This document shows positions 141-57,900 of a stretch of 64,000 nt of DNA, one piece after another. The translations under genes were made by a program, and so were the position numbers. The notes beneath the pieces were generated by a model. It was not told where the DNA came from. It was given only the letters and a program-made list of their open reading frames with translations, and did not search any database. Each line of letters starts with the position of its first letter. Position 1 is the first letter of the stretch. The DNA comes from Mustelus asterias (Eukaryota): assembly GCF_964213995.1 (NCBI RefSeq), contig NC_135808.1, positions 33,790,001 through 33,854,000 on the forward strand, in the 5' to 3' direction.

Positions 141-259
141 AAACATACCTGGGGCAATTTTCCACTTTGCTGGCTAGGTGCCAGTGTTGTAGCTGTACTG
201 TACAGCTTGGCTAGGGGCACGTGTTACATGCTCCCTATTGCTGTGTATACTGGGGCGGC

Positions 260-3237: not shown

Positions 3238-3390
3238 GTGAGTTTGGTGTCTGGGGAGCTCTTGGGGTGAATGCGCGGCCGCTTAGCAGAGTATAGGAGA
3301 TTTTAATTCGAGAGAGAACCATTAGGCCCATCTCTGTGCCTCCCCTCTCTTTGCAGGAACTCTCTCCTCAGTCCCATTCCTTTTTTTAAA

Positions 3391-8469: not shown

Positions 8470-8730
8470 TTTTTATTCATTCGTGGGACCAGCGTCGCTG
8501 GCTGGCTGGCCAGCATTTATTGCCCATCCCTAATTGCCCTTGAGGAGATGATGGTGAGCTGCATCTTGAATGGCTGCAGTCCATGTTCTGTGAATTGACC
8601 CACAATGCCATCAGGGAGGGAATTCCAGGATTTTGACCCAGCAACTGCAAAGAAACAGGGATATATTTCCAAGTCAGGATGGTGAGTGGCTTGAGAGGAA
8701 CCTGCCGGTGGTGGTGGTTCCCATGTATGC
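8470..8730 (-). mobile_element. 3' tail of the CR1/L2-group LINE seen at 19518-23063 (another copy at 15428-15688, +)
   Basis: Reverse complement of ...CCTGACTTGGAAATAT...GGGTCAAAATCCTGGAATTCCCTCCC...GATGGGCAATAAATGCTGGCCAGCC. Confidence 0.8.
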
Positions 8731-8844: not shown

Positions 8845-11800
8845 CCACTCTGTAGTTACAGTACATAGTCTGACCTTGTGAATCACACCAAGATTGTAGT
8901 TATACTGCACACAGACTGATGCTGTGAACTCACTCCCAGACTGTAGTTACACTGCACACCCTGACCCTGTGAGCTAACTCCCAGAGTGCAGTTACACTGC
9001 ACGTAGTCTTAACCTGTGAACTCTCACCCAGAATTAGTTACTCCATGACCTTGTGAACTCAGTCCCTGACGGTAGTTATACTGACATACAAACATTCTGA
9101 CCCTGTGAACTCACTCGCGGACTGCAGGTACTCTGACCCAGTGAACTCTCGCAGACTGTAGTTACACTGCACACAGTCTGACCCTGTGAACTCAGTCCCA
9201 AAGTATAGTTATACTGAACACAGTTAGACTCCCTATAAAATCCCTATAGTACAGAAGAGGGCCATTTGGCCCATTGTTTCTGTATCGACTTTCTGACAGG
9301 GCATCATACCCAGGACCACCTAACCCTGCAACACCACACATTTACCCCGCTAATCCCTCTACCTACACATCTTTGGACATTAAGGGGCAATTTAGCATGG
9401 CCAATGTACCTAACCTGCACATCTTTGAACTGTGGGAGGAAACCAGAGCACCCGGAGGAAACCCACACAGACACAGGGAGAACTTGCAAACTCAACACAG
9501 TCATCCAATTGAACCCGGGTCCCTGGATCTGTGAGGCAGTAGTGCTAATCACTGTACCACCAAGCTACCCTAACTCACTCCAACACTGTTGTTTATACAG
9601 CACACAATCTGACCCAGTGAACTTGCTTCCAGACTGTAGTCATCCTGCACACAGTCTGACACTGAACTCACTCCAGGACTATAGTTATACTGTACAAAAT
9701 CAGATGTGAGAATTCAGTCGCAGACTGCAGCTAAACTATACAGTCTGACCCTGTGAACTCCCAGCCTGTAGTTTTAGTGCCCACAGTTTGACCCTGTGAT
9801 CTCACACACAGACTATAGTTACACTGCACAATGTCTGACTCTGCAAACTGTGGCCAAGACAGTGGTTATACTGCACACAGTCTGTCCCTGTGAATTCACA
9901 CCCAGGGTACACTACACTGTGACTTTTCAATATCACTTCCAGACTGTAATTGACTCTGTGAACCTATAACCAGACTGCAGTTACACTGCACACAGCCTGA
10001 CCCTGTGAACTGTCTCCTAAACTGTAGTTATACTGTGCACAGTCTGATCCTGTGAACTCACTCACAGATTGCAGTTGCATTGCACAGTCTGACCCCGTAA
10101 ATTGATTTGCTGACTGTAGATTATAGCACAAAGTCTGACCCTGTGAATTGTCTCCTAGACTGTAGAAACACCACAGTCTGATGCTCTGAATTCACTCCCA
10201 GACTGTAGATACGCTGCAGTTTGACACTTTGAACTCACTCCCAGACTGTAGTTGCACTGATGACAGTCTGACCTTGTGAACACTCCCCCAGACTGTAGTT
10301 ACACTGCACACAGTCGGACGCTGTGAACTCCAAGACTAGATATACTGCATAGAGTCTGAACCTGTGAACTCACTCTGGATTGTAGTAAAACTGTACACAG
10401 TCTGACCCTGTTAACTCACTACCAGGCTGTAGTTACACTGTAAGCAGTCTGACCCTGTTATCTTATTACCATAACATACTCACAGACTGTAGCTACACTG
10501 TGCACGGTCTCACCCTGTCATCACATTAACAGAACACACTCACAGACTGTAATTACACTGCACAGTCTGACCCTGTGATCTCACTCCCAGACTATAGATA
10601 CGCTGCAGTTTGATTTCACTCCAAAACTGCAGTTGCACTGTTGAGTCTGACCCTGTGAACTCTCCCCTAGACCATAGCTACACTGCACACAGTCTGACCC
10701 TGTGAACTCTCCCCAGACCATAGCTACACTGCACACAGTCTGACCCTGTGAACTCTCCCCTAGACCATAGCTACACTGCACACAGTCTGACCCTGTGAAC
10801 TCTCCCCTAGACCATAGCTACACTGCACACAGTCTGACCCTGTGAACTCTCCCCTAGACCATAGCTACACTGCACACAGTCTGACCCTGTGAACTCTCCC
10901 CTAGACCATAGCTACACTGCACACAGTCTGACCCTGTGAATTCTCCCCTAGACCATAGCTACACTGCACACAGTCTGACCCTGTGAATTCTCCCCTAGAC
11001 CATAGCTACACTGCACACAGTCTGACCCTGTGAATTCTCCCCTAGACCATAGCTACACTGCACACAGTCTGACCCTGTGAACTCTCCCCTAGACCATAGC
11101 TACACTGCACACAGTCTGACCCTATGAACTGTCTCCCAAACTGTAGTTAAACTGCACACAATCTGACCCTGCAAACTCACTCTCAGATTGTAGTTATACT
11201 GCACACAGTCTCATCTTGCGTACTCACTCCCAGACTGCAGTTACAATGCACCATCTGACCCTGTGAACTCACTCCCAGACTGCAGTTACAATGCACCATC
11301 TGACCCTGTGAACTCACTCCCAGACTGCAGTTACAATGCACCATCTGACCCTGTGAACTCACTCCCAGACTGCAGTTACAATGCACCATCTGACCCTGTG
11401 AACTCACTCCCAGACTGCAGTTACAATGCACCATCTGACCCTGTGAACTCACTCCCAGACTGCAGTTACAATGCACCATCTGACCCTGTGAACTCACTCC
11501 CAGACTGCAGTTACAATGCACCATCTGACCCTGTGAACTCACTCCCAGACTATCAATGTGCTGCAGTTTGATGCTTTGATCTCAATCCAAGACTGCAGTG
11601 GCACTGATGAGTCTGACCCTGTGAACTCTCCCCTAGACTGTAGTTACACTGTATACAGTCTCACCCTGTGAAGTCACTCCCAGACTGTAGTTACACTGCA
11701 TACAATTTGACCCTGCAAACTCACTCTCAGACTGTAGTTATACTGCACAGTCTCATCTTGTGTACTCACTTCCAGACTGCACTTACAGTGCTCAGCCTGA

Positions 11801-14497
11801 TTCTGTGAACTCAATCCCAGACTGTAGTTATACCTCACACAGTCTGACTGTGTGAACTCACTCCCAGACTCTAGTTACACTGCACACAATCTGACCCTGT
11901 GAACTCACTCACAGGCAGCAGTTACTCTATGACCTTGTGACCTCAGTCCCAGACTGTTGTTATATTGTAAACAGTCTGACCTGTGAATTCAGTCGCAGAC
12001 TTCAGTTAACCTGCACTCAGTCTGACCCTGTGAACTCACTCCCGGATGTAGGTTCGCTGATGACAGTTTGACCCTCTCCCAGACTGTAGTTACACTGCAA
12101 ATAATCTGACTCTGTGAACTTCACTCACTGTGAAGTCCAAAGATGTGCGGATTAGGTTGATTGGCCATGCTAAAAAATTGCCCCTCAGTGTCCTGAAATG
12201 CGTAGGTTAGAGGGATTAGTATATGGGGTAAATATATGGGGGTAGGGCCTGGGTGGGATTGTGGTCGGCGCAGACTCGATGGGCCAGATGGCCTCTTTCT
12301 GCACTGTAGGGTTTCCATGATTCTATGAACTCATTCCCAGATTACAGTTATGCTGCACGCAGTTTGACCCCTTGAACTCACTAACAGACTGTAGTTACAC
12401 TTCACACAGCCTGACCCATTGAACTCACTCACAGACTGCAGTTACAACATGAATAAGTTGACCCTGCAAACTCACTCCCAGACTGTAGTTACACTGGCAC
12501 ATAGTCTGACCCTGTGAACTCATCCCAGACTGTAGTTACTCTATGACCCTATAATCTCAGTCCCAGACTGTAGTTATACTGTAAACAGTCTGACCTGTGA
12601 ATTCAGTCCCAGACTGTAGTTATAGTGCACAGTCTGACCTTGTGAACTCACTCCCAGACTGTAGTTACACTCCACACAGCCTGACCCTGTGAGTTCACTT
12701 GGTCAGACTGTGTGCACTGTAACTAAAGTCTGGGAGTGAGATCATAGGGTCAGACTGTGCAGTTATACAACAGTCCACGAGTGAGTTTGCAGGGTCAGAC
12801 TGTGTGTACTGTAAATTCAGTCTGGGAGTGAGTTTGCAGGGTCAGACTGTGTGTAGTGTAAGTTCAGTCTGGGAGTGAGTTTGCAGGGTCAAACTGCTTC
12901 AGACTATAGGTACACTGCACACAGTCTGACCTTGTGAACTCACAACCAAATTTTAGTCATGCTGCATGTAGTCTGGCCATGTGAACAAATTCTCAGATTA
13001 TAGTTTCACTGCACACAATCTGACCCTATGAACCAACTTTCAGACTGTAGTTTCACTGCACACAATCTGACCCTGTGAACCAACTTTCAGACTGTAGTTT
13101 CACTACACACAATCTGACCCTGTGAACCAACTTTCAGACTGTAGTTTCACTACACACAATCTGACCCTGTGAACCAACTTTCAGACTGTAGTTTCACTGC
13201 ACACAGTCTGACTCTGTGAACCAACTTTCAGACTGTAGTTTCACTGCACACAGTCTGACCCTGTGAACCAACTTTCAGACTGTAGTTTCACTGCACACAG
13301 TCTGACCCTGTGAACCAACTTTCAGACTGTAGTTTCACTGCACACAATCTGACCCTGTGAACCAACTTTCAGACTGTAGTTACACTGCACACAGTCTGAC
13401 TCTGTGAACTCACTCATGGAATTAAATATATTGCAGTTTGACTCTTTTATTTCTTCCCGGACTGTAGTTACACTGAGAGTTCGATCCTATGAACTCACTC
13501 CCAGATGTCAGTTACACTGCACAGTTTGACCCTGCGAACATCCTCACAGACTGTAGTTACACAGCAAAAAATCTGACCCTGTGAACTCACTCCTAGAGAG
13601 AGATCACAGGGTCAGACTGTGCAGTGTAACTACAGTCTGGGAGTGACTTCACAGGGTCAAACTGTGTGCAGTGTAAGTGCAGTCTGGGAGTGTGTTCACT
13701 GGGTCAGACTGTGTGCAGTGTAACTACAGTCTGGGAGTGAGTTTACAGGATCAGACTGTGTACAGTTTAACTACAGTCTGGGAGTGATGTTCACAGGGTC
13801 AGACTGCGTACAGTATAACTACAGTCTGGGAGTGTGTTCACCGGGTCAAACTGCGGGCAGTGTAACTACAGTCTGGGAGTGTGTTCACAGGGTCAGACTG
13901 TGTGCAGTGTAACTACAGTCTGGGAGTGAGTTTACAGGATCAGACTGTACAGTTTAACTACAGTCTGGGAGTGATGTTCACAGGGTCAGACTGTGTACAG
14001 TATAACTACAGTCTGGGAGTGTGTTCACTGGGTCAAACTGTGGGCAATGTAACGACAGTCTGGGAGTGAGTTTACAGGGCAAACTCTGTGTGGTGGAACT
14101 ACAGTCTGGGAATGGGATTACAGGGTCGGAATGCGTGCTGTGTAACTAGAGTCAGGGATCGAGTTCATAGTGTGAGTCTGTGCAATGTAACTACAGTCTG
14201 CGACTGAATTCACTGTCATGCTGTGTAAAGAGTTACCACAATCTGGGGCTGAGTTCACGGGGTCTAAGTATGTGCAGTGTAACTACAATCTGGGAGACAG
14301 TTTACAGGATCAAACTGTGTGCAGTGTCTTTGCAGTGTGGGTGTGAGTTTACAGGGTCAGGCTGGATTCAGTGTAACTAAAGTCTGGGAGTGAGTTCACA
14401 GGGTCAGACTGTGCAGTGCAACTACAGTCTGGGAGTGAGGTTACAGTTTGATTCTGTGAACTGACTCTCAGACTGTTACACTGCACACAGCCTGACT
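8845..14497. repeat. satellite A: 45-47-bp tandem array (consensus CAGACTGTAGTTACACTGCACACAGTCTGACCCTGTGAACTCACTCC)
   Basis: Near-perfect sub-arrays: 47-bp at ~10650-11125, 45-bp at ~11222-11550, 47-bp at ~13000-13390. Inverted blocks at ~12691-12896 and ~13598-14440. SINE insertions at 9238-9570 (-) and 12131-12326 (+). Confidence 0.95.
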
Positions 14498-14879: not shown

Positions 14880-15689
14880 GGCAAGTCAAAGCAGCCCCAG
14901 TCACCAGAAACTCAGACAACCCCACAGCTAGCTCCGCTCTCCAACCGGCACTCGACCCAAAACTTCCTCCTCAAAACCATACATTCTGCACCCTATAAAA
15001 CATTGTCCTCTCCAAGCGTTTTCACTGTCTACAACCCCCCGACCCCACCGCACCCAATTCCAACCTTTGCTCGACTCTCTGCTTAAATTCTTCGGATCCG
15101 ATTTTCTGACACTGTGGACAGAACTGGAATCGCACTGACAATAATAATACAGGTTCAGGGCAGTGGATGGGGAGGTGGGAGGGAGCTGGGGAGATCACGG
15201 CTCCCCTCAATTCCCAAGTAAAGATTTCATGGCAAATGTCCGAGAAAGCAAACTTCCGATGGCCAATTTCCCTGCACTGAGAACCATCCAAAAAAGGTGA
15301 CTGAAATCATGAACTTCGGATAGTTCTTATTGTCTTACATCAATAGAAAACGTTAGACCAGTTAAAGGCACTTTATAGGTAACTATTGTACTAACCAGTA
15401 CTGACTGACCACCCTGTCATTATGGCACACTCAGTAGCAGCCGTGTGTACTACAAGATGCATTGCAGGAACTCACAAGGCTCCTTAGGCAACACCTTCCC
15501 AACCCAGGACCACTTCCATCGAGAAGAACAAAAGCAGCAGATACCTGAGAACCACCACCAAGTTCCCCTCCAACCATCCTGACTTGGAAATATATCGCCG
15601 TTCCTTCATTGTCATTGGGTCAAAATCCTGGAATTTCCTCCCAATAAATGCTGGCCAGCCAGTGACGCCCATGTCCCACGAATGAATAA

Positions 15690-18490: not shown

Positions 18491-18739
18491 TGAGTCTGGC
18501 AGATTGTGAGCTTTCAATCTTTAGCTAAACAACACAGGGCACAGTGCTGCGTCTTATAGTCCAACCAATAGAGAATAAATAGTCCACAGCATCAGCAGTT
18601 ACTGGGTAAACCCTGTGAATTACTGTCTGCATTTGCAGTCCCTGTCACCACTACGCCTCTCCCCCCCCTCCACCCGGGGCTCCACAAAGGCAGCACATGA
18701 AGGTCATGCCAAGGCTTCTTACTCTCTCGCCCTATTTTC

Positions 18740-19075
18740 CAATTGTTTGATCCTGAGGGGTATTGATTGGGTGGATGTGGAGAGCATGTTTCATCTTGTG
18801 GGAGAATCTAGAACTGGGGTCACTGTTTTCCCATTTATAACTGAGATGAGACAATTTTTCAATGAGGGTAGTGACTGTTTGGAACTCTCTTCCTGAAAAG
18901 GTGCCGGAAGCCGAGGCTTTGAATATTTTTAAGGCAGAGGTGGATAAATTCTTGATAAGCAAGGGGGTGAAAGATTATCGGGGATCAGCGGGATGAAGAT
19001 TTAAGATTACTATTATTAAATAGCGGAGCAGACTCGATGGGCTGAATAGCCTTTTCCTGCTCCTTGTTCATATGC
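18740..19075 (+). mobile_element. CR1 3' fragment
   Basis: ILRGIDWVDVESMFHLVGESRT; CR1 3' UTR. Confidence 0.8.
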
Positions 19076-19517
19076 CTGCTCTCTCTCCCCCACCCCGTTA
19101 CCTCTTCTTCACACTCTACCTTCCTTTTTATTCCCCCCTTTCTCTCTTCCCTCCTGCTCACTCTCTCGCCCATTCTCCACTCTCGCTTCCGCTTTCCTCC
19201 CTCTCACTTTCTCATACCCTCTCCCTTACTCTTTTTTAAAAAGTTTATTTATTAGTCACAAGTAAGGCTCACATTAACACTGCAATGAAAGTTACTGTGA
19301 AATTCCCCTAATCACCACACTCCAGCACGTGTTTGGGTCAATGCACCTAACGAGCTCGTCTTTCAGAATGTGGGAGGAAACCGGAGCACCGGAGGAAACC
19401 CACGCAGATACCTCTCTCTTGTACTCTCTCACCTTCTCCTTCACTCTTGCCCTCTCCTTTGTACTCTCTCTCTCACTTTTCTTTTGCCTTTCAATATCCT
19501 TCTCATTCTCTCTCAGT

Positions 19518-22500
19518 GGGAGAGGCGATGGCCTCGTGGTATTATCGGTAGACTATTAACCCAGAAAACTTGGCTAATGTTCTGGGGACCCGGTTTCAAA
19601 TCTCACCATGGCAGTTGGTGGAATTTAAATTCAATAAAAAATATCTGGAATTAAGAGTCTATTGATGACCATGAAACCATTCTCGATTGTTGAGTAAACC
19701 CATCTGGTTCACTAATGTTCTTCAGGGAAGACAATCTGCCGTCCTTACTGGTCTGGCCTACATGTGACTCCAGAACCACAGCAATGTGGTTGACTCTCAA
19801 GTGCCCTCCAAAATGGCCTAGCAAGCCACTCAGTAGTATCAATTGCTACAAAGGCTCAACAAAGAAATGAAACCAGATGGACTACCTGGCATCGACTTAG
19901 GCATCAGAAAAGAAAACTGCAAAACAAACAGCCCTGTCGACTCTGCAAAGTCCTCCTTACTAACAACTGGGGGCTAGTGCTAAAATTGGGAGAGCTGTCT
20001 CACAGACTAGTCATTCTCGCATCATCATATCTTATAGATAACACCCCAGACACCACCATTACCATCCCTGGATATGTCCTGTCCCACCAGCAGGACAGAC
20101 CTATCAGCACAGTGGTATACAGTCGGGACGGAGTTGCCCTGGGAATCAACATTGACTCCGAACCCCATGAAGTCTCATGGCTTCAGGTTGAACATGGGCA
20201 AGGATATCTCTTACTGGTTACCACATACCATCCTTCTTTGGCTGATGAATCAGTACTCCTCCATGTTTTCCAACACAGGAAGCACTGATGGTAGCAAGGG
20301 CGCAAAATGTACTCTTGGTGGGGGATTTCAATGTTCACCACTGAGGGTGGCTCAGCAGCAGCACGACTGATCGAGCTGGTCGGGACCTAAAGGATATAAC
20401 TGCTAGACTGGGTTGGCACCAGGTGATGAAGGAACCAAAAAGAGGGGAAACATACTTGACCTCATCCTTACCAATCTGCCGGCTGCAGATGCATCTGTCC
20501 ATGACAGTATCAGTAAGAGTGACCACCGCAGAGTGCTTGTGGAGACAAAGTCCTGCCTTCACATTGAGAATAACCTCCCATCGTGTTGTGTGGCACTATT
20601 ACCGGGACAGGCTTCAAACAGATCTAGCAACTCAAGACTGGGCATCCATGAGGCGCTGTGGGCCATCAAGAGCAGTGGAACTGTACTCCAGCGCAATCTG
20701 CAAACCCATGGCCCAGCATATTCCCCACTCAACCATTATCATCAAGCCAAGAGATCAATACTGGTTCAATGGAGAGTGCAGGAGCAGCACCAGGCATATC
20801 TAAAAATGAGGTGTCAACCTGGTGAAGCTACCAAACAGGTTACTTGCATGCCAAATGGCAAAAACAGCAAGTGAGAGACAGAGCTAAGCGATCCCACAAC
20901 CAATGGATCAAATCTAAGCTCTGCAGTTCTGCCACATCCAGCTGTGAATGGTGGTGGACAATTAAACAATTCACCAGAGAAAGAGACTCCACAAACATCC
21001 TCATCCTCAGTGATGGAGGAGCCCAGCCATTGACTCTGTCGACACTTCCCGCGGCCTCGGCAAAGCAGCCAGCATAATTAAGGACCCCACGCACCCCGGA
21101 CATTCTCTCTTCCACCTTCTTCCGACGGGAAAAAGATACAAAAGTCTGAGGTCACGTACCAACCTACTCAAGAACAGTTTCTTCCCTGCTGCTGTCAGAC
21201 TTTTGAATGGACTTACCTTGCATTAAGTTGATCTTTCTCTACACCCTACCTATGACTGTAACACTACATTCTGCACTCTCTTGTTTCCTTCTCTATGAAC
21301 AGTATGTTCTGTCTGCATAGCACGCAGGAAACAATACTTTTCACTGTATGTTAATACATGTGACAATAAATCAAATCAAAAAAAAAAGATAAGGCTGAAG
21401 CATTTACAGCAATCTTCAGCCAGAAGTGCTGAGTAGATGATCCATCTCAGCCTCCTCCAGTGGTCTCCAGCATCACAGATGCCCATCTCCAGCCAATTTG
21501 ATGCACTCCATATGATATCAAGAAATGGTTGGAGGCACTGGATACTACAAAGGCAATGGGCCCTGATAACATTCCGGCAATAGTACTGAAGACTTGTGCT
21601 CCAGAACTTGCCGCTCCCCTAGCCAAGCTCTTCCAGTGCAGTTATAACACTGGCATCTACCCAACAATGTGGAAAATTGCCCAGGTATATCCTGTACACA
21701 AAAAACAGCTCAAATCCAACCCAGCCAATTACCGCCCAATCAGTCTACTCTCGATCATCAGTAAAGTGATGAAGGGGTCATTAACAGTGCTATCAAGCAG
21801 CACCTGCTCAGCAATAACCTGCTCAGTGATGCCCAGTTTGGGTTTCACCAGGGTCACTCAGCTCCTGACCTCATTACAGCCTTGGTTCAAATACGGACAA
21901 AAGAGCTGAGCTTCAGAGCTGAGAGTGGCAGTCCTTGACATCAAGGCCGCATTCGACCGAAGGAGACCTAGCAAAACTGGAATTAATGGGTATCAGGGGG
22001 GAAAACTCTCCCCTGGTTGGAGTCATACCTGGTACATAGGAAGATGGTTGTGGAAGGTCATTCACTCCTGGACATCTCTGCAAGAGTCCCTCAGGGTAGT
22101 GTCCTGGGCCCAATCACCTTCAGCTGCTTCATCAATGACCTTCCCTCCATCATAAGGTCAGAAGTAGGGATGTTCGTCGATGATTGCACAATGTTCAGCA
22201 CCATTTGCGATTCCTCAGATACTGAAGCAGTCCATGTTCTAATGCAACAAGGTCTGGATATTATCCAGGCTTGGGCTGACAAGTGACAAGTAACATTCGC
22301 GCCACAGAAATGCCAGGTAATGATCATCAATAATAAGAGACACTCGAACCACCGCCCCTTGACATTCAATGGTGTTACCATCACTGAATCCCCCACTGCC
22401 AACATCCCTGGGGTTACCATTGACCAGAAACTCAACTGGACTCACCTCATAAACACAGTGGCTACAAGAGCAGGTCAGAGGCTAGGAATACTGCAGCGAG

Positions 22501-23063
22501 GTAACTCATTTCCTAACTCCCCAAAGCCTGCCCACCATCGACAAGGCACAGGTCAGGAGTGTGATGGAATACTCTCCATGGATAGGTGCAGCTCCAACAA
22601 CACTCAAGAAGCTTGACACCGTCCAGGACAAATTAGCCTGTTTGACTGGCATCACATCTACAAACATCTACTCCCTCCATCACCGACGTTCAGTAGCAGC
22701 AGTGTGTACTATCTACAAGATGCACTGCAGCAATTCACCAAAGATCCTTAGTCAGCACTTCCAAACCCACGACCACTTCCATTTAGAAGGACAAGGGCAG
22801 CAGATACATGGGAACAGCACCACCTGCAATTTCCCCACCAAGTCACTCACCATCCTGACTTGGAAATATTTTACCGTTCCTTCACTGTCGCTGGGTCAAA
22901 ATCCTGGAATTCCCTCCCTAATGACATTGTGGGACAACCCACAGCACATGGACTGCAGCGATTCAAGGCAGCAGCTCACCATCACCTTCTCAAGGGCAAC
23001 TAGGGATGGGCAATAAATGCTGGCCAGCCAGCGCTGCCCATGTCCCATGAATGAATAAAAAAA
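19518..23063 (+). mobile_element. decayed CR1/L2-group LINE (APE + RT) with a tRNA/Deu-SINE-like 5' leader
   Basis: A box TGGCCTCGTGG 19529-19539 and B-box-like GTTTCAAATC at ~19593. APE motifs (GGFQC = GDFN frame-shifted, LDLILTN, SDH) and RT motifs (KAMGPDNIP, NYRPISLLS, VPQGSVLGP, MFVDD). Tail ATGAATGAATAAAAAAA. Confidence 0.88.
21027..21388 (+). mobile_element. Rex1/Babar LINE 3' fragment nested in the LINE above
   Basis: Near-identical to 25239-25594 and 63660-63978; (AATCA)n tail. Confidence 0.85.
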
Positions 23064-23672: not shown

Positions 23673-24369
23673 CACTTCTCATTCACCTGTATCTCCTGCC
23701 TCATTCATCAAATCCTCACCCTCTTTCTCTCTCCCCCATTTACTTTCCAGAATTTCCTTAGAACCTCTCCTCCTCTCTTTCATGCTTGAAGACACTCCTT
23801 AAAATCTACACCCATGACCAAGATTATCGTCATTTCTCAAAATATCACATGCTTCAATGTCAAATATTGCTTTATAAAACTTCTGTGAACTGCCTTGGGC
23901 CACTTAATTACATTTAAAATACTATATGAATAAAAGCTGCTGTTACTGTTATATTTACTATAGTTTAGAGACTGAATCCTCACTGGTGAGTGTTATATTT
24001 ACTATAGTTTGGATATTGGAGGCGAAGATTTCCTATTTTTTTTCGGCAGAGTGGTACAGCCGGCAGGAAAAACAGTGTGGAAGTCACAGGCCCCAACAAT
24101 GTCTTTCTCTGCTGTATCGTTCACCTGACAGATGATAAACAGTGAAGGGGCATGCCCCACAACGTCATGTTGGTTGGGTGTGCTCTGACTGAGTCCATCT
24201 GTCAGCAACTTAGGTTTTAAATTCCTGAACAACAACCCCCCCACCCCCCTCCCCCCTCCCCGCCTCCTCCAAAATCCTCCCTCCTCCCCAGGCATTGCCC
24301 TGGGGCAATGCTAGGAGGCTGTGCCACGGGGCAGTCCAAGGCATAATCCTCTTCCCCCAATTGCCTGGA

Positions 24370-25594
24370 TCCACTACTGTTCGCCTACCGCTGCCACAGG
24401 TCCACAGCAGATGCCATCTCCTTGGGCCTACACTCAGACCTGAAACATCTAGATAACAAATACACATATGTCAGACTCCTATTCATAGACTACAGCTCAG
24501 CCTTTAACACCATTATTCCTATGAGACTCATCTCCAAACTTCATGGCCTGGGGCTCAGCTTCTCCCTCTGCAACTGGATCCTAGACTTCCTAAACCACAG
24601 GCCACAGTCAGTAAGGATAGGCAACGACACCTCCTCCACAATCATCCTCAACACTGGTGCTCCACAAGGCTGTGTCCTCAGCCCCTTACCATACTCATTA
24701 TACACCTACAACTGTGTAGCCAAATTCCCCTCCAACTCAATTTTCAAGTTTGCTGATGATACCACTGTAGTGGGTCGGATCTCAAACAATGATGAGGCGG
24801 AATACAGGAAAATGATAGAGAATCTGGTGAACTGGTGCAATGATAATAATCTCTCCCTCAATGTCAACAAAATGAAGGAGATAGTCATCAACTTCAGGAA
24901 GCGTAGTGCGGGACATGCCCCTATCTACATCAATGGGGGTGAAGTAGAAATGGTTGAGAGCTTCAAGTTTTTAAGTGTCCAGATCACCAACAACCTGTCC
25001 TGGTCCGTCCATGCTGACACTATAGTTAAGAAAGCCCTCCAATGCCTCGACTTTCTCAGAAGACTAATGAAATTTGGCATTTCCCCAACGACTCTCACTT
25101 ACTTTTACAGATGCACCATGGAAAGCATTCTTTCTGATTGTATCACAGCTTAGTATGGCTTCTGCTCTGTTCAAGACCACAAGAAACTACATAGGGTCAT
25201 GAATGAAGTCCAGTCCATCACTCAAAACATCCTCCATCCATTGACACTGTCTACACTTCCCGCTGCCTCAGAAAAGCAGCCAGCATAATTAAGGGTCCCA
25301 CGCACCCCAGACATACTCTTTTCCGCCTTCTTCTGTCGGGAAAAAGTTACAAAAGTCTGAGGACATATACCAACCGGCTCAAGAACAGTTTCTTCCCTGC
25401 TACCATCAGACTTTTGAATGGACTTACCTCACATTAAGTTGATCTTTCTCTACACCCTAGCTATGACTGTAACACTACATTCTGCACTCTCTCCTTTCTT
25501 TCGCTATATACGGTATACTTTGTCTGTATAGCATGCAAGAAACAATTCTTTTCACTGTATACTAATACATGTGACAATAATAAATCAAATCAAA
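24370..25594 (+). mobile_element. 5'-truncated Rex1/Babar LINE (RT)
   Basis: ORF 24422-25153: [46 protein letters not shown]; (AATCA)n tail. Confidence 0.9.
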
Positions 25595-32985: not shown

Positions 32986-33096
32986 AAAGGGTCTACAGAG
33001 GGATATAGACAGGTTAAATGAGTGAGCAAAAACCAGGCAGATGGAATTATAATGTGGGAAAATGTGAAGTTTTGCATTTTGCGAGGAAGAATAAAG

Positions 33097-34219
33097 GGGA
33101 TGCAGATGTATGGGATTGGGGGTGATCTAGGAAATTGGATCAGGAATTGGCTAGCGGATAGGAAACAGAGGGTGGTGGTTGATAGTAAATATTCATCATG
33201 GAGTGCGGTTACAAGTGGTGTACCTCAGGGATCTGTTTTGGGGCCACTGCTGTTTGTAATATTTATTAATGATCTGGATGAGGGTATAGTTGGGTGGATT
33301 AGCAAATTTGCTGATGACACCAAAGTCGGTGGTGTGGTAGACAGTGAGGAAGGGTGTCGTAGTTTGCAGGAAGACTTAGACAGGTTGCAAAGTTGGGCCG
33401 AGAGGTGGCGGATGGAGTTTAATGCGGAGAAGTGTGAGGTAATTCACTTTGGTAGGAATAACAGATGTGTTGAGTATAGGGCTAACGGGAGGACTTTGAA
33501 TAGTGTGGAGGAGCAGAGGGATCTAGGTGTATGTGTGCATAGATCCCTGAAAGTTGGGAATCAAGTAGATAAGGTTGTTAAGAAGGCATATGGTGTCTTG
33601 GCGTTTATTGGTAGGGGGATTGAATTTAGGAGTCGTAGCGTTATGTTGCAACTGTACACAACTCTGGTGCGGCCGCACTTGGAGTACTGTGTGCAGTTCT
33701 GGTCCCCACATTACAGGAAGGATGTGGAGGCTTTGGAGAGGGTGCAGAGGAGGTTTACCAGGATGTTGCCTGGTATGGAGGGGAGATCCTATGAGGAGAG
33801 GCTGAGGGATTTGGGATTGTTTTCGCTGGAAAGGCGGCGGCTAAGAGGGGATCTTATTGAAACATATAAGATGATTAGAGGTTTAGATAGGGTGGATAGT
33901 GATAGCCTTTTTCCTCTGATGGAGAAATCCAGCACGAGGGGGCATGGCTTTAAATTGAGGGGGGGTAGTTATAGAACCGATGTCAGGGGTAGGTTCTTTA
34001 CCCAGAGGGTGGTGAGGGATTGGAATGCCCTGCCAGCATCAGTAGTAAATGCGCCTAGTTTGGGGGCGTTTAAGAGATCCGTAGATAGGTTCATGGACGA
34101 AAAGAAATTGGTTTAGGTTGGAGGGTCACAGTTTTTTTTTTTAACTGGTCGGTGCAACATCGTGGGCCGAAGGGCCTGTTCTGCGCTGTAATGTTCTATG
34201 TTCTATGTTCTATGTTCTA
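33097..34219 (+). mobile_element. young 5'-truncated CR1 LINE with an uninterrupted RT C-terminal ORF
   Basis: ORF to 34116 without stops (VTSGVPQGSVLGPLLF, ISKFADDTK); (TTCTATG)n tail. Confidence 0.95.
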
Positions 34220-42310: not shown

Positions 42311-44072
42311 CTTCACGTCCCCATTGATGTAGGCAGGGGCATGCCCTCCACTACACTTCCTGAAGTTGATGACGATCTCCTTCATTTGTTGACATTGAGG
42401 GAGAGATTATTGTCGCATCAGTTCACCAGATTTTCTCTTTTCTGTACTGTGTCTCGTCATTGTTTGAGATCTGGCCCACCATGGTGGTGTCATCAGCAAA
42501 CTTGAAAATCGAGTTGAAGTGGAATTTGGCTGCACAGGCAGAGGTGTATAAAAAGTATAGTAAGGGGCTGAGGACATTGCCTTGCGGAGCACTGGTGTTG
42601 AGAATGATCATGGAGGATGTGTTGTTGCCTATCCTTACTGACTGTGGCCTGTGGTTTAGGAAATCTAGGATCCAGTTGCAGAGGGAGAAGCTGAGCCCCA
42701 GGCCATGAAGGTTTGAGATGAGTCTCGTAGGAATAATGGTGTTAAAAGCTGAGCTCTAGTCCATGAATAGGAGTCTAACATTGGTGCCTTTGTTATCTAG
42801 GTGTTCTCGGGTTGAGTGTAGGGCCAGGGAGATGGCATCTGCTGTGGCAATAGGCAAACTGTAGTAGATCCATGCAATCTGAGGGGCAGGAATTGATTTG
42901 TGCCATTACTAACCTCATAATGATAGATGTCAGAGCCACCGGGCGATAGTCATTAAGGCACGCTGCCTGGCTTTTCTTTGGTACCGGGATGATGATCGCC
43001 TTCTTGAAGCAGGTAGGGACCTCAGATTGGCGTAAGGAGAGGCTGAGGATATCTGCAAATACCCCCGCCAGCTGGTCCGCACAGGACCTGAGTGCCCGTC
43101 CGGGTACCCCATCCGGGCCAGTTGCTTTTTGTGGGTTGACTTTTGAGAAGGCTGCTCTGACGTTGGCAACGGATACAGATTTGTTCGAGGCTTCTGGCAT
43201 GAAGGGCATGCTCTCGCTGACCTCTTACTCAAAATGGGCATAGAATGCGTTGAGCTCATTGGGGAGGGGCGCATTGGAGCCGGTGATTTTACGTGCCTTC
43301 ATCTTGTAGCCTATTATGCAGACCTTGCTATAGTTGGCTAGCCTGGGATTCTATCTTGGTCTGGTACTGTCTTTTGGCATCTTTGATAGATCTCTGTAGA
43401 TCGTATCTGGCTTTCTTGTATAGGCCAAGGTCACCTGACTCGAACACCTCAGACCTGGACTTCAGCAGGCAGTGGATATCCCTGTTCATCCATGGTTTCC
43501 ATTTGGGAAATACATGGATTTGCTTCTTTGACACAAAATCTTCTACTCACTTACTAATGAAATCTGTTACTGTAGTGGCGTACTCATTCAGGCTGGTCGC
43601 AGAGTTTTTAAATATTGACCAGTCTACTGACTCGAGCAGTCCTGCAGGAGATCATCAGATTCCTCAGACCAACATTGCACGACTTTCTTTGACGGATTCT
43701 CCCATTTCAGTTTTTGCTTGTAAGTTGGGAGCATGAGCACAACCTTGTGGTCTGATTTATCAAAATGTGGGCAGGCAATAGAGCGGTAGACATTTTTAAT
43801 ATTTGTGCAGCAGTAGTCTAGGATGTTTGGGCCTCTGGTGGAACAGGAGATGTGTTGGTGGTATCTTGGTAAGCCTGATTGAAGTCCCTGGCCACGATGA
43901 ACAAGGTCTTGGGATGTTTCGTCTCAAGGTTATTTGCGGTGATGTATATTTTGTCCAGTGCGGTCTTCATGTCCATGTGGGGTGGGATGTAAACTGCTGT
44001 CAGGATAACAGAGGTGAACTCCCATGGAAGGTAGTAGGGGTGGCATTTTAGTGTCAGGTATTCTAGGTCTGG
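42311..44072 (-). mobile_element. Rex1/Babar LINE internal fragment (APE end + RT), truncated at both ends
   Basis: [43 protein letters not shown] on the - strand. Confidence 0.9.
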
Positions 44073-56439: not shown

Positions 56440-57900
56440 GAGTCATAGAGGTTTACAGCATGGAAACATGCTCTTCGGCCCAACTTGTCCATACCGCCAT
56501 TTTTTTAAAACCCCGAAGCTAGTCCCAATTGCCCGCATTTGCCCCATATCCCTCTATACCCATCGTACCCATGTAATTGTCTAAATGCTTTTTAAAAGAC
56601 AAAATTATACCCGTCTCTACTATTACCTCTGGCAGCTTGTTCCAGACACTCACCACCCTCTGTGTGAAAAAATTGCCCCTCTGGACACTTTTGTATCTCT
56701 CCCCTCTCAGCTTTAACCTATGCCCTCTAGTTTTAGAGTCCCCTACCTTTGGAAAAAAATATTGACTATCTAGCTGATTGGTGCCCCTCATTATTTTATG
56801 GACCTCTATAAGATCACCCCTCAGCCTTCCACGCTCCAGAGAAAAAAGTCCCACTCTATCCAGCCTCTCCTTATAACTTAAACAATCAAGTCCCGGTAGC
56901 ATCCTAGTAAATCTTTTCTGCACTCTTTCTAGTTTAATAATATCCTTTCTATAATAGGGTGACCAGAACTGTACACAGTATTCCAAGTGTGGCCTTACCA
57001 ATGTCTTGTACAACTTCAACAAGATGTCCCAACTACTGTATTCAATGTTCTGACCAATTAAACCAAGCATGCTGAATGCCTTCTTCACCAGTCTGTCCAC
57101 CTGTGACTCCACTTTCAAGGAGCTACGAACCTGTACCCCTAGATCTCTTTATTCTGTAACTCTCCCCAACGCCCTACCATTAACTGAGTAAGTCCTGCCC
57201 TGGTTCGATCTACCAAAATGCATGACCTCGCATTTATCTAAATTAAACTCCATCTGCCATTCGTCAGCCCACTGGCCCAATTGATCAAGATCCCGTTGCA
57301 ATCTGAGATGACCTTCTTCACTGTCCACTATGCCACCAATCTTGGTGTCATCTGCAAACTTACTAACCATGCTTCCTAAATTCTCATCCAAATCATTAAT
57401 ATAAATGACAAATAACAGTGGACCCAGCACTGATTCCTGAGGCACACCACTGGTCACAGGCCTCCAGTTTGAAAAATAACCCTCTACAACCTTCGTCTGT
57501 CTTTTGTCATCAAGCCAATTTTGTGTCCATTTGGCTACCTCACCCTGGATTCCGTGAGATTTAATCTTATGCAACAATCTACCATGCGGTACCTTGTCAA
57601 AGGCCTTGCTGAAGTCCATGTAGACAACACCAACTGCACTGCCCTTATCTATCTTCTTGGTTATCCCTTCAAAAAAGTCAATCAAATTTGTGAGACATGA
57701 TTTTCCACTCACAAAGCCTAATCAGTCCTTGCGTCTCTAAATGCCTGTAGATCCTGTCTCTCAAAATACCTTCCAATAACGTATCCACCACAGATGTGAG
57801 TCTTACTGGCCAGTAGTTCCCAAGCTTTTCCCTGCAGCCCTTCTTAAACAAAGGCACAACATTTGCCACCCTCCAATCATCAGGCACTTCACCTGTGACT
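56440..57900 (-). mobile_element. CR1 LINE (RT), slightly decayed
   Basis: ORFs 56519-57118, 57149-57712 and 57678-57887 (VYMDFSKAFDKVPH, VSKFADDTK). Confidence 0.93.

What the first reader, a model, noticed from the sequence alone, without database searches (positions are those of the whole stretch)
19518..20000. LINE ORF2 headed directly by a Pol III tRNA/Deu-SINE-like leader, with no ORF1
Seen: a tRNA-like head (A box 19529-19539, B-box-like motif ~19593) and a ~200-bp conserved-looking core (CCATCTGGTTCACTAATG...GGCCTACATGTGACTCCAG...GCAAGCCACTCAG) run, after only ~130 bp, into an APE+RT reading frame. That frame continues colinearly to a GGGCAATAAATGCTGGCC...ATGAAT tail. No SINE tail, poly(A) or TSD is visible at the junction. 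Established: this core resembles the Deu domain of DeuSINEs (SacSINE1/AmnSINE1 group), whose tails are borrowed from CR1/L2-group LINEs; LINEs normally use Pol II 5' UTRs and usually encode ORF1. Inference: this is an autonomous SINE-headed LINE, and the short SINE could be its internal-deletion derivative rather than a parasite of it.
Basis: partly seen in the sequence, partly recalled or inferred. Interest (0 to 1): 0.72.

Follow-up and report, generated by a model that had tools for sequence, protein, structure and literature searches.

The report
Shark LINE with a tRNA-type promoter
This is a dead copy of an abundant shark-and-ray jumping gene (Zenon) that encodes its own copying enzyme yet begins with the tRNA-type promoter of non-coding SINEs and has purged that polymerase's T-rich stop signals, so it is likely a protein-coding element made by RNA polymerase III, and the short SINEs are likely cut-down versions of it.

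Summary
The structure is real; the 'Deu/SacSINE1' label is wrong. Window 19518-23063 is a decayed copy (11 frameshifts, 4 stops, one nested insertion) of a 3.3-kb family whose 5' end matches the published elasmobranch Zenon LINE consensuses (Stuart et al. 2026, supplement). 18 of 20 fetched copies run from head to tail. With head-free queries, 26 of 58 copies reach the head and none shows another 5' UTR or an ORF1. The family has one APE-RT frame under purifying selection, no usable AUG, and intact A/B boxes. Its sense strand has no 5-nt window with 4 T (11.9 expected; 0 of 5000 permutations), unlike 61 outgroup LINE frames. Short head+core+tail elements outnumber it and have several breakpoints, as expected of internal deletions. 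A profile of this genome's real Deu SINE does not hit the leader. Best reading: an autonomous LINE transcribed by Pol III and translated without cap or AUG. This is inferred from sequence only; there is no RNA evidence and no intact copy was found. The family is catalogued, but my searches found no description of its tRNA head. The scan noted this family before in other genomes.

The parts
19518..23063 (+). Decayed full-length copy of the elasmobranch Zenon LINE (family unit about 3.3 kb), no TSD
   Evidence: 7.8% from the family majority line
19518..19610 (+). tRNA-like head with a long variable-arm-like hairpin; resembles tRNA-Ser (the only tRNA type compared)
   Evidence: z 5.6 for the majority line, 3.2 for this copy; much of the score comes from the A/B boxes
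19529..19539 (+). Pol III A box
   Evidence: sequence
19593..19603 (+). Pol III B box, degenerate in this copy and perfect in the family majority line
19695..19836 (+). Conserved core, nearly invariant by eye in 7 published shark and ray Zenon consensuses and kept (whole or most of it) in the short derivatives; not the Deu domain; function unknown, candidate ribosome-recruiting element (inferred)
19868..19870 (+). Out-of-frame ATG after an A-rich linker; opens a 36-codon frame (family majority line) that overlaps the APE start in the wrong phase
   Evidence: present by eye in 6 of 7 published consensuses; kept in 66 of 82 copies
19947..23003 (+). Broken single APE + RT reading frame (family: 979 open codons, first Met at codon 182; GDFN, SDH, QGS and FADD motifs)
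21030..21381 (+). Nested 3' fragment of an unrelated LINE ending in TCAAA repeats (Rex1-like by recalled C-terminal motif, untested); absent from the other copies at this site
23004..23063 (+). 3' UTR with AATAAA (23012-23017) and a short A tail; shared with the short derivatives

Best explanation
This is a dead copy of the elasmobranch Zenon LINE, a 3.3-kb single-frame APE-RT retrotransposon whose 5' end is a tRNA-type A/B-box promoter and which is likely transcribed end to end by RNA polymerase III and likely translated without cap or AUG start. Shown: the head-core-frame-tail unit is multicopy, the frame was under purifying selection with this head attached, T-rich tracts are purged from the sense strand, there is no usable in-frame AUG, and short head+core+tail forms carry several breakpoints. 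Inferred: a Zenon ancestor in early sharks and rays picked up a tRNA-derived head by template switching. Pol III transcription then selected against T tracts, and the conserved core and leader likely recruit ribosomes to the uncapped RNA. The SINE-like short forms likely arose repeatedly by internal deletion and were copied by the LINE enzyme.
For: Multicopy unit: 39 non-self hits at 82-88% identity among 40 scored; 18 of 20 fetched have head and tail. Head-free queries: 26 of 58 copies reach the head, 14 more break off inside the leader, and none shares another 5' region. Selection: substitutions shared by 5 or more of 83 copies are 57 synonymous to 58 other, against 111 to 439 for private ones (p=5e-10); older against younger subfamily, 83 synonymous, 51 replacement and 0 stop codons. 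Older copies 12-19% diverged also carry the leader. T purge: 0 windows with 4 T in 5 against 11.9 expected (0 of 5000 synonymous permutations), while A, C and G give 75, 74 and 46; 61 outgroup frames have a median ratio of 1.0 (range 0.48-1.35) and 3 other LINE frames of this genome show none; TTT 3 against 14.6. Seven published shark and ray consensuses keep both boxes and the core; the first 400 nt of the hagfish and coelacanth Zenon do not show them. A 37%-identical full-length relative starts with ATG, is T-tract-rich and has no B box upstream. Short forms: 12 breakpoint pairs among 30 units, and one older-type short form carries older LINE core and tail states; L076 and L296 keep extra LINE sequence at the junction.
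Against: No transcript, polymerase or translation data were obtained. No intact copy among 147 scored (longest open frame 632 codons), so all family-level features come from majority lines of decayed copies. TTTT absence alone is marginal (P 0.05-0.13); the strong signal comes from TTT and interrupted tracts, and that these weaken Pol III elongation is recalled, not sourced here. The element has no fixed terminator: 15 of 88 tails have 4 or more T before the A tail, which can also arise after insertion. The AATAAA and A tail fit Pol II as well. The core does not fold better than shuffles (z -0.57), so an IRES-like role has no structural support here. No start codon or canonical slippery site was found. 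Kojima 2024 argues that Pol III processivity restricts such elements to short lengths.
Confidence: 0.64

Rival explanations
1. Split labour: Pol III makes the RNA that is reverse-transcribed, but the protein is made from a separate capped Pol II transcript (read-through or spliced from a host promoter) of the same or another copy.
For: It avoids cap-independent translation; no start codon or IRES structure was found; the AATAAA signal fits Pol II.
Against: Purifying selection on successive master lineages is easiest to explain if the copied RNA is also the translated one. A capped transcript would still meet ten out-of-frame or short upstream ATGs and no usable in-frame AUG.
Confidence: 0.14
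2. An ordinary Pol II LINE that captured a SINE as its 5' UTR. The A/B boxes serve as a TFIIIC-bound or Pol II promoter element, and T-tract avoidance has another cause (premature polyadenylation, splicing or RNA decay).
For: LINEs are described as Pol II-transcribed (PMC10886601); 5' UTR swapping is common in LINEs (recalled); AATAAA plus A tail.
Against: Other LINEs face the same Pol II pressures but show no purge (61 outgroup and 3 same-genome frames). C-rich windows are not depleted, so it is not general pyrimidine-tract avoidance. The 5' end lies 11 nt before the A box, as in Pol III units, and AUG initiation was lost.
Confidence: 0.17
3. SINE first throughout: the short element is an independent SINE lineage, and the long form is a chimera that repeatedly re-acquires the head from it, or a passenger moved by another LINE.
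For: Short forms outnumber long ones (82 of the first 100 of 4,766 exact matches). The head is ultimately tRNA-derived, and an ancestral SINE donor cannot be excluded. SINE modules are exchanged by template switching (PMC5499810, PMC7245038).
Against: The long form carries the head in five species and in old and young subfamilies. Its frame is under selection, and no headless partner LINE appeared. Short forms match LINE subfamily states at both ends and have several breakpoints.
Confidence: 0.05

Closest known systems
Elasmobranch Zenon LINEs (CarCar, RhiTyp, ScyCan, HypSab Zenon-1 and SquAca Zenon-1 to -3; Stuart et al. 2026, PMC13343379; 'CR1-Zenon like LINE' in the whale shark preprint 10.1101/443036)
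   Same: The first 400 nt of these consensuses match this leader by eye, including head and core; same length class (3.2-3.3 kb for five of seven), no ORF1, A tail, crustacean relatives.
   Different: The paper's main text has no occurrence of tRNA, polymerase III or promoter. The head, the T purge, the missing AUG and the short derivatives are not described in what I read.
DeuSINEs (SacSINE1, AmnSINE1)
   Same: tRNA-type head followed by a conserved body, in the same host group.
   Different: No sequence match: the Deu motifs are absent and the profile of this genome's Deu-type SINE does not hit leader or tail. Different tail (L2-2_CM type for SacSINE1, PMC5499810).
Bipartite non-autonomous LINEs (RTE, Ingi/RIME, Vingi, R2) and SINEs built from them (Kojima 2018, PMC5786205)
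   Same: Short elements made of the 5' and 3' ends of an autonomous LINE by internal deletion.
   Different: There the parent is taken to be Pol II-transcribed and the tRNA head is added afterwards. Here the autonomous parent already carries the head. Zenon is not among the four clades listed.
R2 retrotransposons (recalled, apart from the ribozyme reference seen)
   Same: Single-frame LINE translated from an uncapped RNA not made by Pol II, without a normal AUG.
   Different: R2 is co-transcribed by Pol I, is site-specific, uses a restriction-like endonuclease and a ribozyme; no such ribozyme was evident here by eye.
T+ SINEs (B2, Can; PMC9599045)
   Same: tRNA head, AATAAA near the end, T run before the A tail in some copies.
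   Different: T+ SINEs are short and non-coding; here only 15 of 88 tails have 4 or more T.

Membership tests
Elasmobranch Zenon LINE | Sequence identity with the published consensuses | tested here: met
   Motif search and by-eye match of the first 400 nt of 7 consensuses; the rest of each cell was cut from view
Elasmobranch Zenon LINE | Single APE + RT frame, no ORF1 | tested here: met
Elasmobranch Zenon LINE | Poly(A) tail | tested here: met
   Short A tails in most of 88 ends
Elasmobranch Zenon LINE | RT phylogeny inside the Zenon clade | not tested
   No tree with named Zenon references was built; only crustacean-labelled relatives were seen
DeuSINE (SacSINE1/AmnSINE1) | Deu central domain | tested here: not met
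DeuSINE (SacSINE1/AmnSINE1) | L2-type tail shared with the shark Deu SINE | tested here: not met
   The Deu-type SINE profile, which includes its tail, does not hit the last 200 nt
Pol III type-2 transcription unit | Internal A and B boxes at the 5' end | tested here: met
Pol III type-2 transcription unit | No internal T-tract terminators on the sense strand | tested here: met
Pol III type-2 transcription unit | Terminator at the 3' end | tested here: inconclusive
   15 of 88 ends with 4 or more T; not in the majority line
Pol III type-2 transcription unit | Pol III occupancy or dependence, triphosphate 5' end | not testable with these tools
   No raw RNA reads were offered
Autonomous LINE | Frame under purifying selection in master lineages | tested here: met
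Autonomous LINE | Intact copy in the genome | tested here: not met
   None among 147 scored; only the best candidates are scored

The most novel reading that the evidence does not exclude
Elasmobranch Zenon is an autonomous, protein-coding retrotransposon transcribed by RNA polymerase III over 3.3 kb and translated from that uncapped RNA without an AUG start. Its conserved leader recruits ribosomes, and its deletion products are SINEs born complete with head, body and tail, which would give one origin and one function for a conserved SINE body.
Probability: 0.55. Interest if true: 0.9.

Novelty: new variant of a known kind. Interest (0 to 1): 0.74.

Why it matters
The standard division is that LINEs are Pol II-made and coding while SINEs are Pol III-made, short and non-coding (stated in PMC10886601). 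A 3.3-kb coding LINE with a Pol III promoter that has been kept across sharks and rays, and a sense strand purged of T tracts, would break that division. It would be a natural Pol III messenger RNA and would point to a cap-independent, non-AUG initiation element in a vertebrate genome. It also makes the open question of what conserved SINE bodies do directly testable, because here the body is the leader of the parent LINE.

Tried and rejected
ARAGORN finds no tRNA in the window, and Rfam gives only chance hits on 19300-20100. The Deu label was rejected; a z of 3.4 between the core and one flank holding a Deu copy was not reproduced by the 19-copy profile. TSD search was at chance level. No RNA holder was listed on record; laying four contig runs shows cover and short-form joints but nothing on expression. 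The core motif was not found in viral or prokaryote contigs or in paper main texts. No A+B box pair upstream in 80 metagenome relatives, many of them 5'-incomplete, and no tRNA in the 29 scanned. Two searches aimed at older subfamilies returned mostly young copies, leaving only 6 old head+frame copies. Folding of the core and start region was not above shuffles; HDV-ribozyme and tRNA-mimic pseudoknot folds were considered by eye only and not established. ATG 350 as a start with a -1 frameshift: no canonical slippery heptamer, no shared frame-joining indel, and 9 of 83 copies share ATT there. Met 182 as a start: it lies inside the APE domain and is not kept in the older subfamily line. The sequence look-up in earlier findings was empty. 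No structure prediction was run.

Full report
Observation. The window shows a tRNA-like head at 19518, a conserved core at about 19695-19836, a broken APE-RT frame from about 19947 to 23003 and a tail to 23063. The copy is dead: 11 frameshifting indels, 4 in-frame stops and a 350-bp fragment of another LINE at about 21030-21381. The A box has one mismatch; the B box is degenerate here but perfect in the family.

The junction is a family feature. A search of the 3.68-Gb genome with 19510-20110 gave 13,452 first-look candidates; the 39 non-self hits among 40 scored were 82-88% identical over most of the query. I fetched 20 of the top loci with long flanks, and 18 run from head to tail; spans are 3,035-5,866 nt, most near 3,250. 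That query contained the head, so I repeated the test with two head-free queries. Of 58 copies, 26 reach the head, 14 break off inside the leader and 18 further downstream at scattered sites; the sequence upstream of the truncated copies shares only other repeats. No alternative 5' UTR or ORF1 appeared. TSDs are at chance level in 40 copies.

Coding capacity. A majority line of 18 copies plus the window copy is 3,295 nt with one open frame of 979 codons; copies lie 4.2-9.1% from it. Natural fragments hit the Pfam endonuclease and RVT_1 models. In 83 head+frame copies, non-CpG substitutions shared by five or more copies are 57 synonymous to 58 other, private ones 111 to 439 (p=5e-10). An older-subfamily line, made by changing the younger line where 46 older pieces agree and so biased towards it, differs by 83 synonymous and 51 replacement codons and no stop. 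Six older copies, 12-19% diverged in the frame, carry the leader too. The masters therefore needed their own protein while they carried this head. No intact copy was among 147 scored.

Pol III signature. The sense strand of the majority line has no run of four T. That alone is marginal (P 0.05-0.13), but TTT occurs 3 times in the frame against 14.6 under synonymous permutation, and Phe codons are 16 TTC to 2 TTT. There is no 5-nt window with four T against 11.9 expected (0 of 5000 permutations), while A, C and G give 75, 74 and 46 such windows. Of 80 metagenome relatives, the 61 with a frame of 400 codons or more have a median observed/expected ratio of 1.0 (range 0.48-1.35). Three other LINE frames from this genome show no depletion, and five natural frames of the family do. 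Real copies have 0.21 T4 runs per kb against 3.7 in 15 pieces of other LINEs of this genome. The head resembles this genome's tRNA-Ser, the only type compared. The best full-length metagenome relative (37% identity) starts with ATG, is T-tract-rich and has no B box upstream, so these traits look derived.

Translation is unsolved. The first in-frame Met is codon 182, inside the APE domain, and is not kept in the older line. Ten upstream ATGs open only short frames. The last, at leader position 350, is out of phase in both subfamilies, has no canonical slippery site, and is ATT in 9 of 83 copies. Non-AUG, cap-independent initiation is my inference; folding gave no support for a special structure.

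Short forms. Of 29 non-self head+core hits, 26 join directly to the tail (23 classed by script, 3 more on reading) and 3 are long. An exact motif at the core end has 4,766 matches; of the first 100 listed I count 82 short-type and 18 long-type. Thirty short units show 12 breakpoint pairs, mostly 317-318 or 290-295 joined to about 3221. All 24 short units with the head covered carry a head variant found in 4 of 27 long copies; they were mostly selected by likeness to the window copy, which has that variant. One older-type short unit has older LINE core and tail states and its own breakpoint. L076 and L296 keep extra LINE sequence at the junction, up to the APE start. Contigs of other runs bridge the same joints. 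Repeated internal deletion from the LINE fits best; an ancestral SINE as donor of the head is not excluded.

The Deu label fails. The published Deu block (Kojima 2020 supplement) does not match; its first motif is absent at up to three mismatches from the window and from a young copy. A Deu-type SINE from this genome carries all three motifs at one mismatch each, and a profile from 19 of its copies hits a positive control at E 3e-60 but not the leader, the window region or the tail. The vertebrate Deu domain is described as 330 bp; the profile covers that whole SINE.

Identity and literature. Earlier AI notes of this scan had flagged the same kind of element in other genomes and pointed to Zenon and PMC13343379; I had reached the Pol III reading before opening them and then checked the lead. 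Seven consensuses from five sharks and rays in that paper's supplement begin with this head and a nearly invariant core; two hagfish and one coelacanth Zenon do not show it in the 400 nt visible. The main text states that Zenon lacks ORF1 and has a poly(A) tail, and contains no 'tRNA', 'polymerase III' or 'promoter'. Ten searches listed no paper whose title or abstract start describes a Pol III-headed autonomous LINE. What I saw of each paper: PMC13343379, abstract, passages and supplement rows cut at 400 characters; PMC5499810, parts 1-2 of 6 and passages, supplement unavailable; PMC7245038, parts 1-3 of 4 and supplement passages; PMC5786205, PMC4824008 (one supplementary file not searched), PMC10886601, PMC11481361, PMC9599045 and bioRxiv 10.1101/443036, passages only. 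R2 biology, Rex1, HE1 and CR1 labels, and weak termination at interrupted T tracts are recalled.

Verdict. A known family with undescribed and unusual anatomy. Autonomy, head-frame linkage and the T purge are shown. Pol III transcription of the whole unit (about 0.75) and translation of that same RNA (about 0.6 overall) are inferred and need RNA data.

Noticed in passing
window 19234-19411 (-): Fragment of another abundant SINE just upstream, HE1/V-SINE-like by recalled motif; it recurs in many unrelated flanks and is not part of the element.
   Followed up: partly
window about 18730-19075 (+): 3' end of a CR1-like LINE (label recalled, untested).
   Followed up: no
window 8470-8728 (-), 15427-15687 (+), 143-217 (-): Further truncated pieces of the same Zenon family.
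   Followed up: partly
window 8850-14446 and 39167-62602: Large 47-bp and 44-bp minisatellite arrays, with strand inversions, covering much of the window.
   Followed up: no
window 33022-34113 (+), 24347-25150 (+), 56897-57721 (-), 42447-43164 (-): RT-region fragments of other LINE clades; used only as T-tract controls.
   Followed up: partly
G000:C71:1886592-2278546: Tandem array of tRNA-Ser-type matches at about 2.9-kb spacing.
   Followed up: no
3' ends of family copies (e.g. L035, L042, L298): T run of 1-7 before the A tail, at about constant combined length in copies with 3 or more T; resembles terminator elongation described for old T+ SINE copies.
   Followed up: partly
L119 (metagenome contig RCNA010015835.1): The only outgroup LINE piece with no T4 run and a low T-window ratio (0.48; 12 of 100 permutations as low); its 5' end is missing, so a Pol III head could not be checked.
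   Followed up: partly
leader positions 200-231 (window about 19718-19748): By eye, the published whale shark consensus has paired changes (AAGG/CCTT to GAGG/CCTC) that would keep a core hairpin; an alternative pairing also fits.
   Followed up: no
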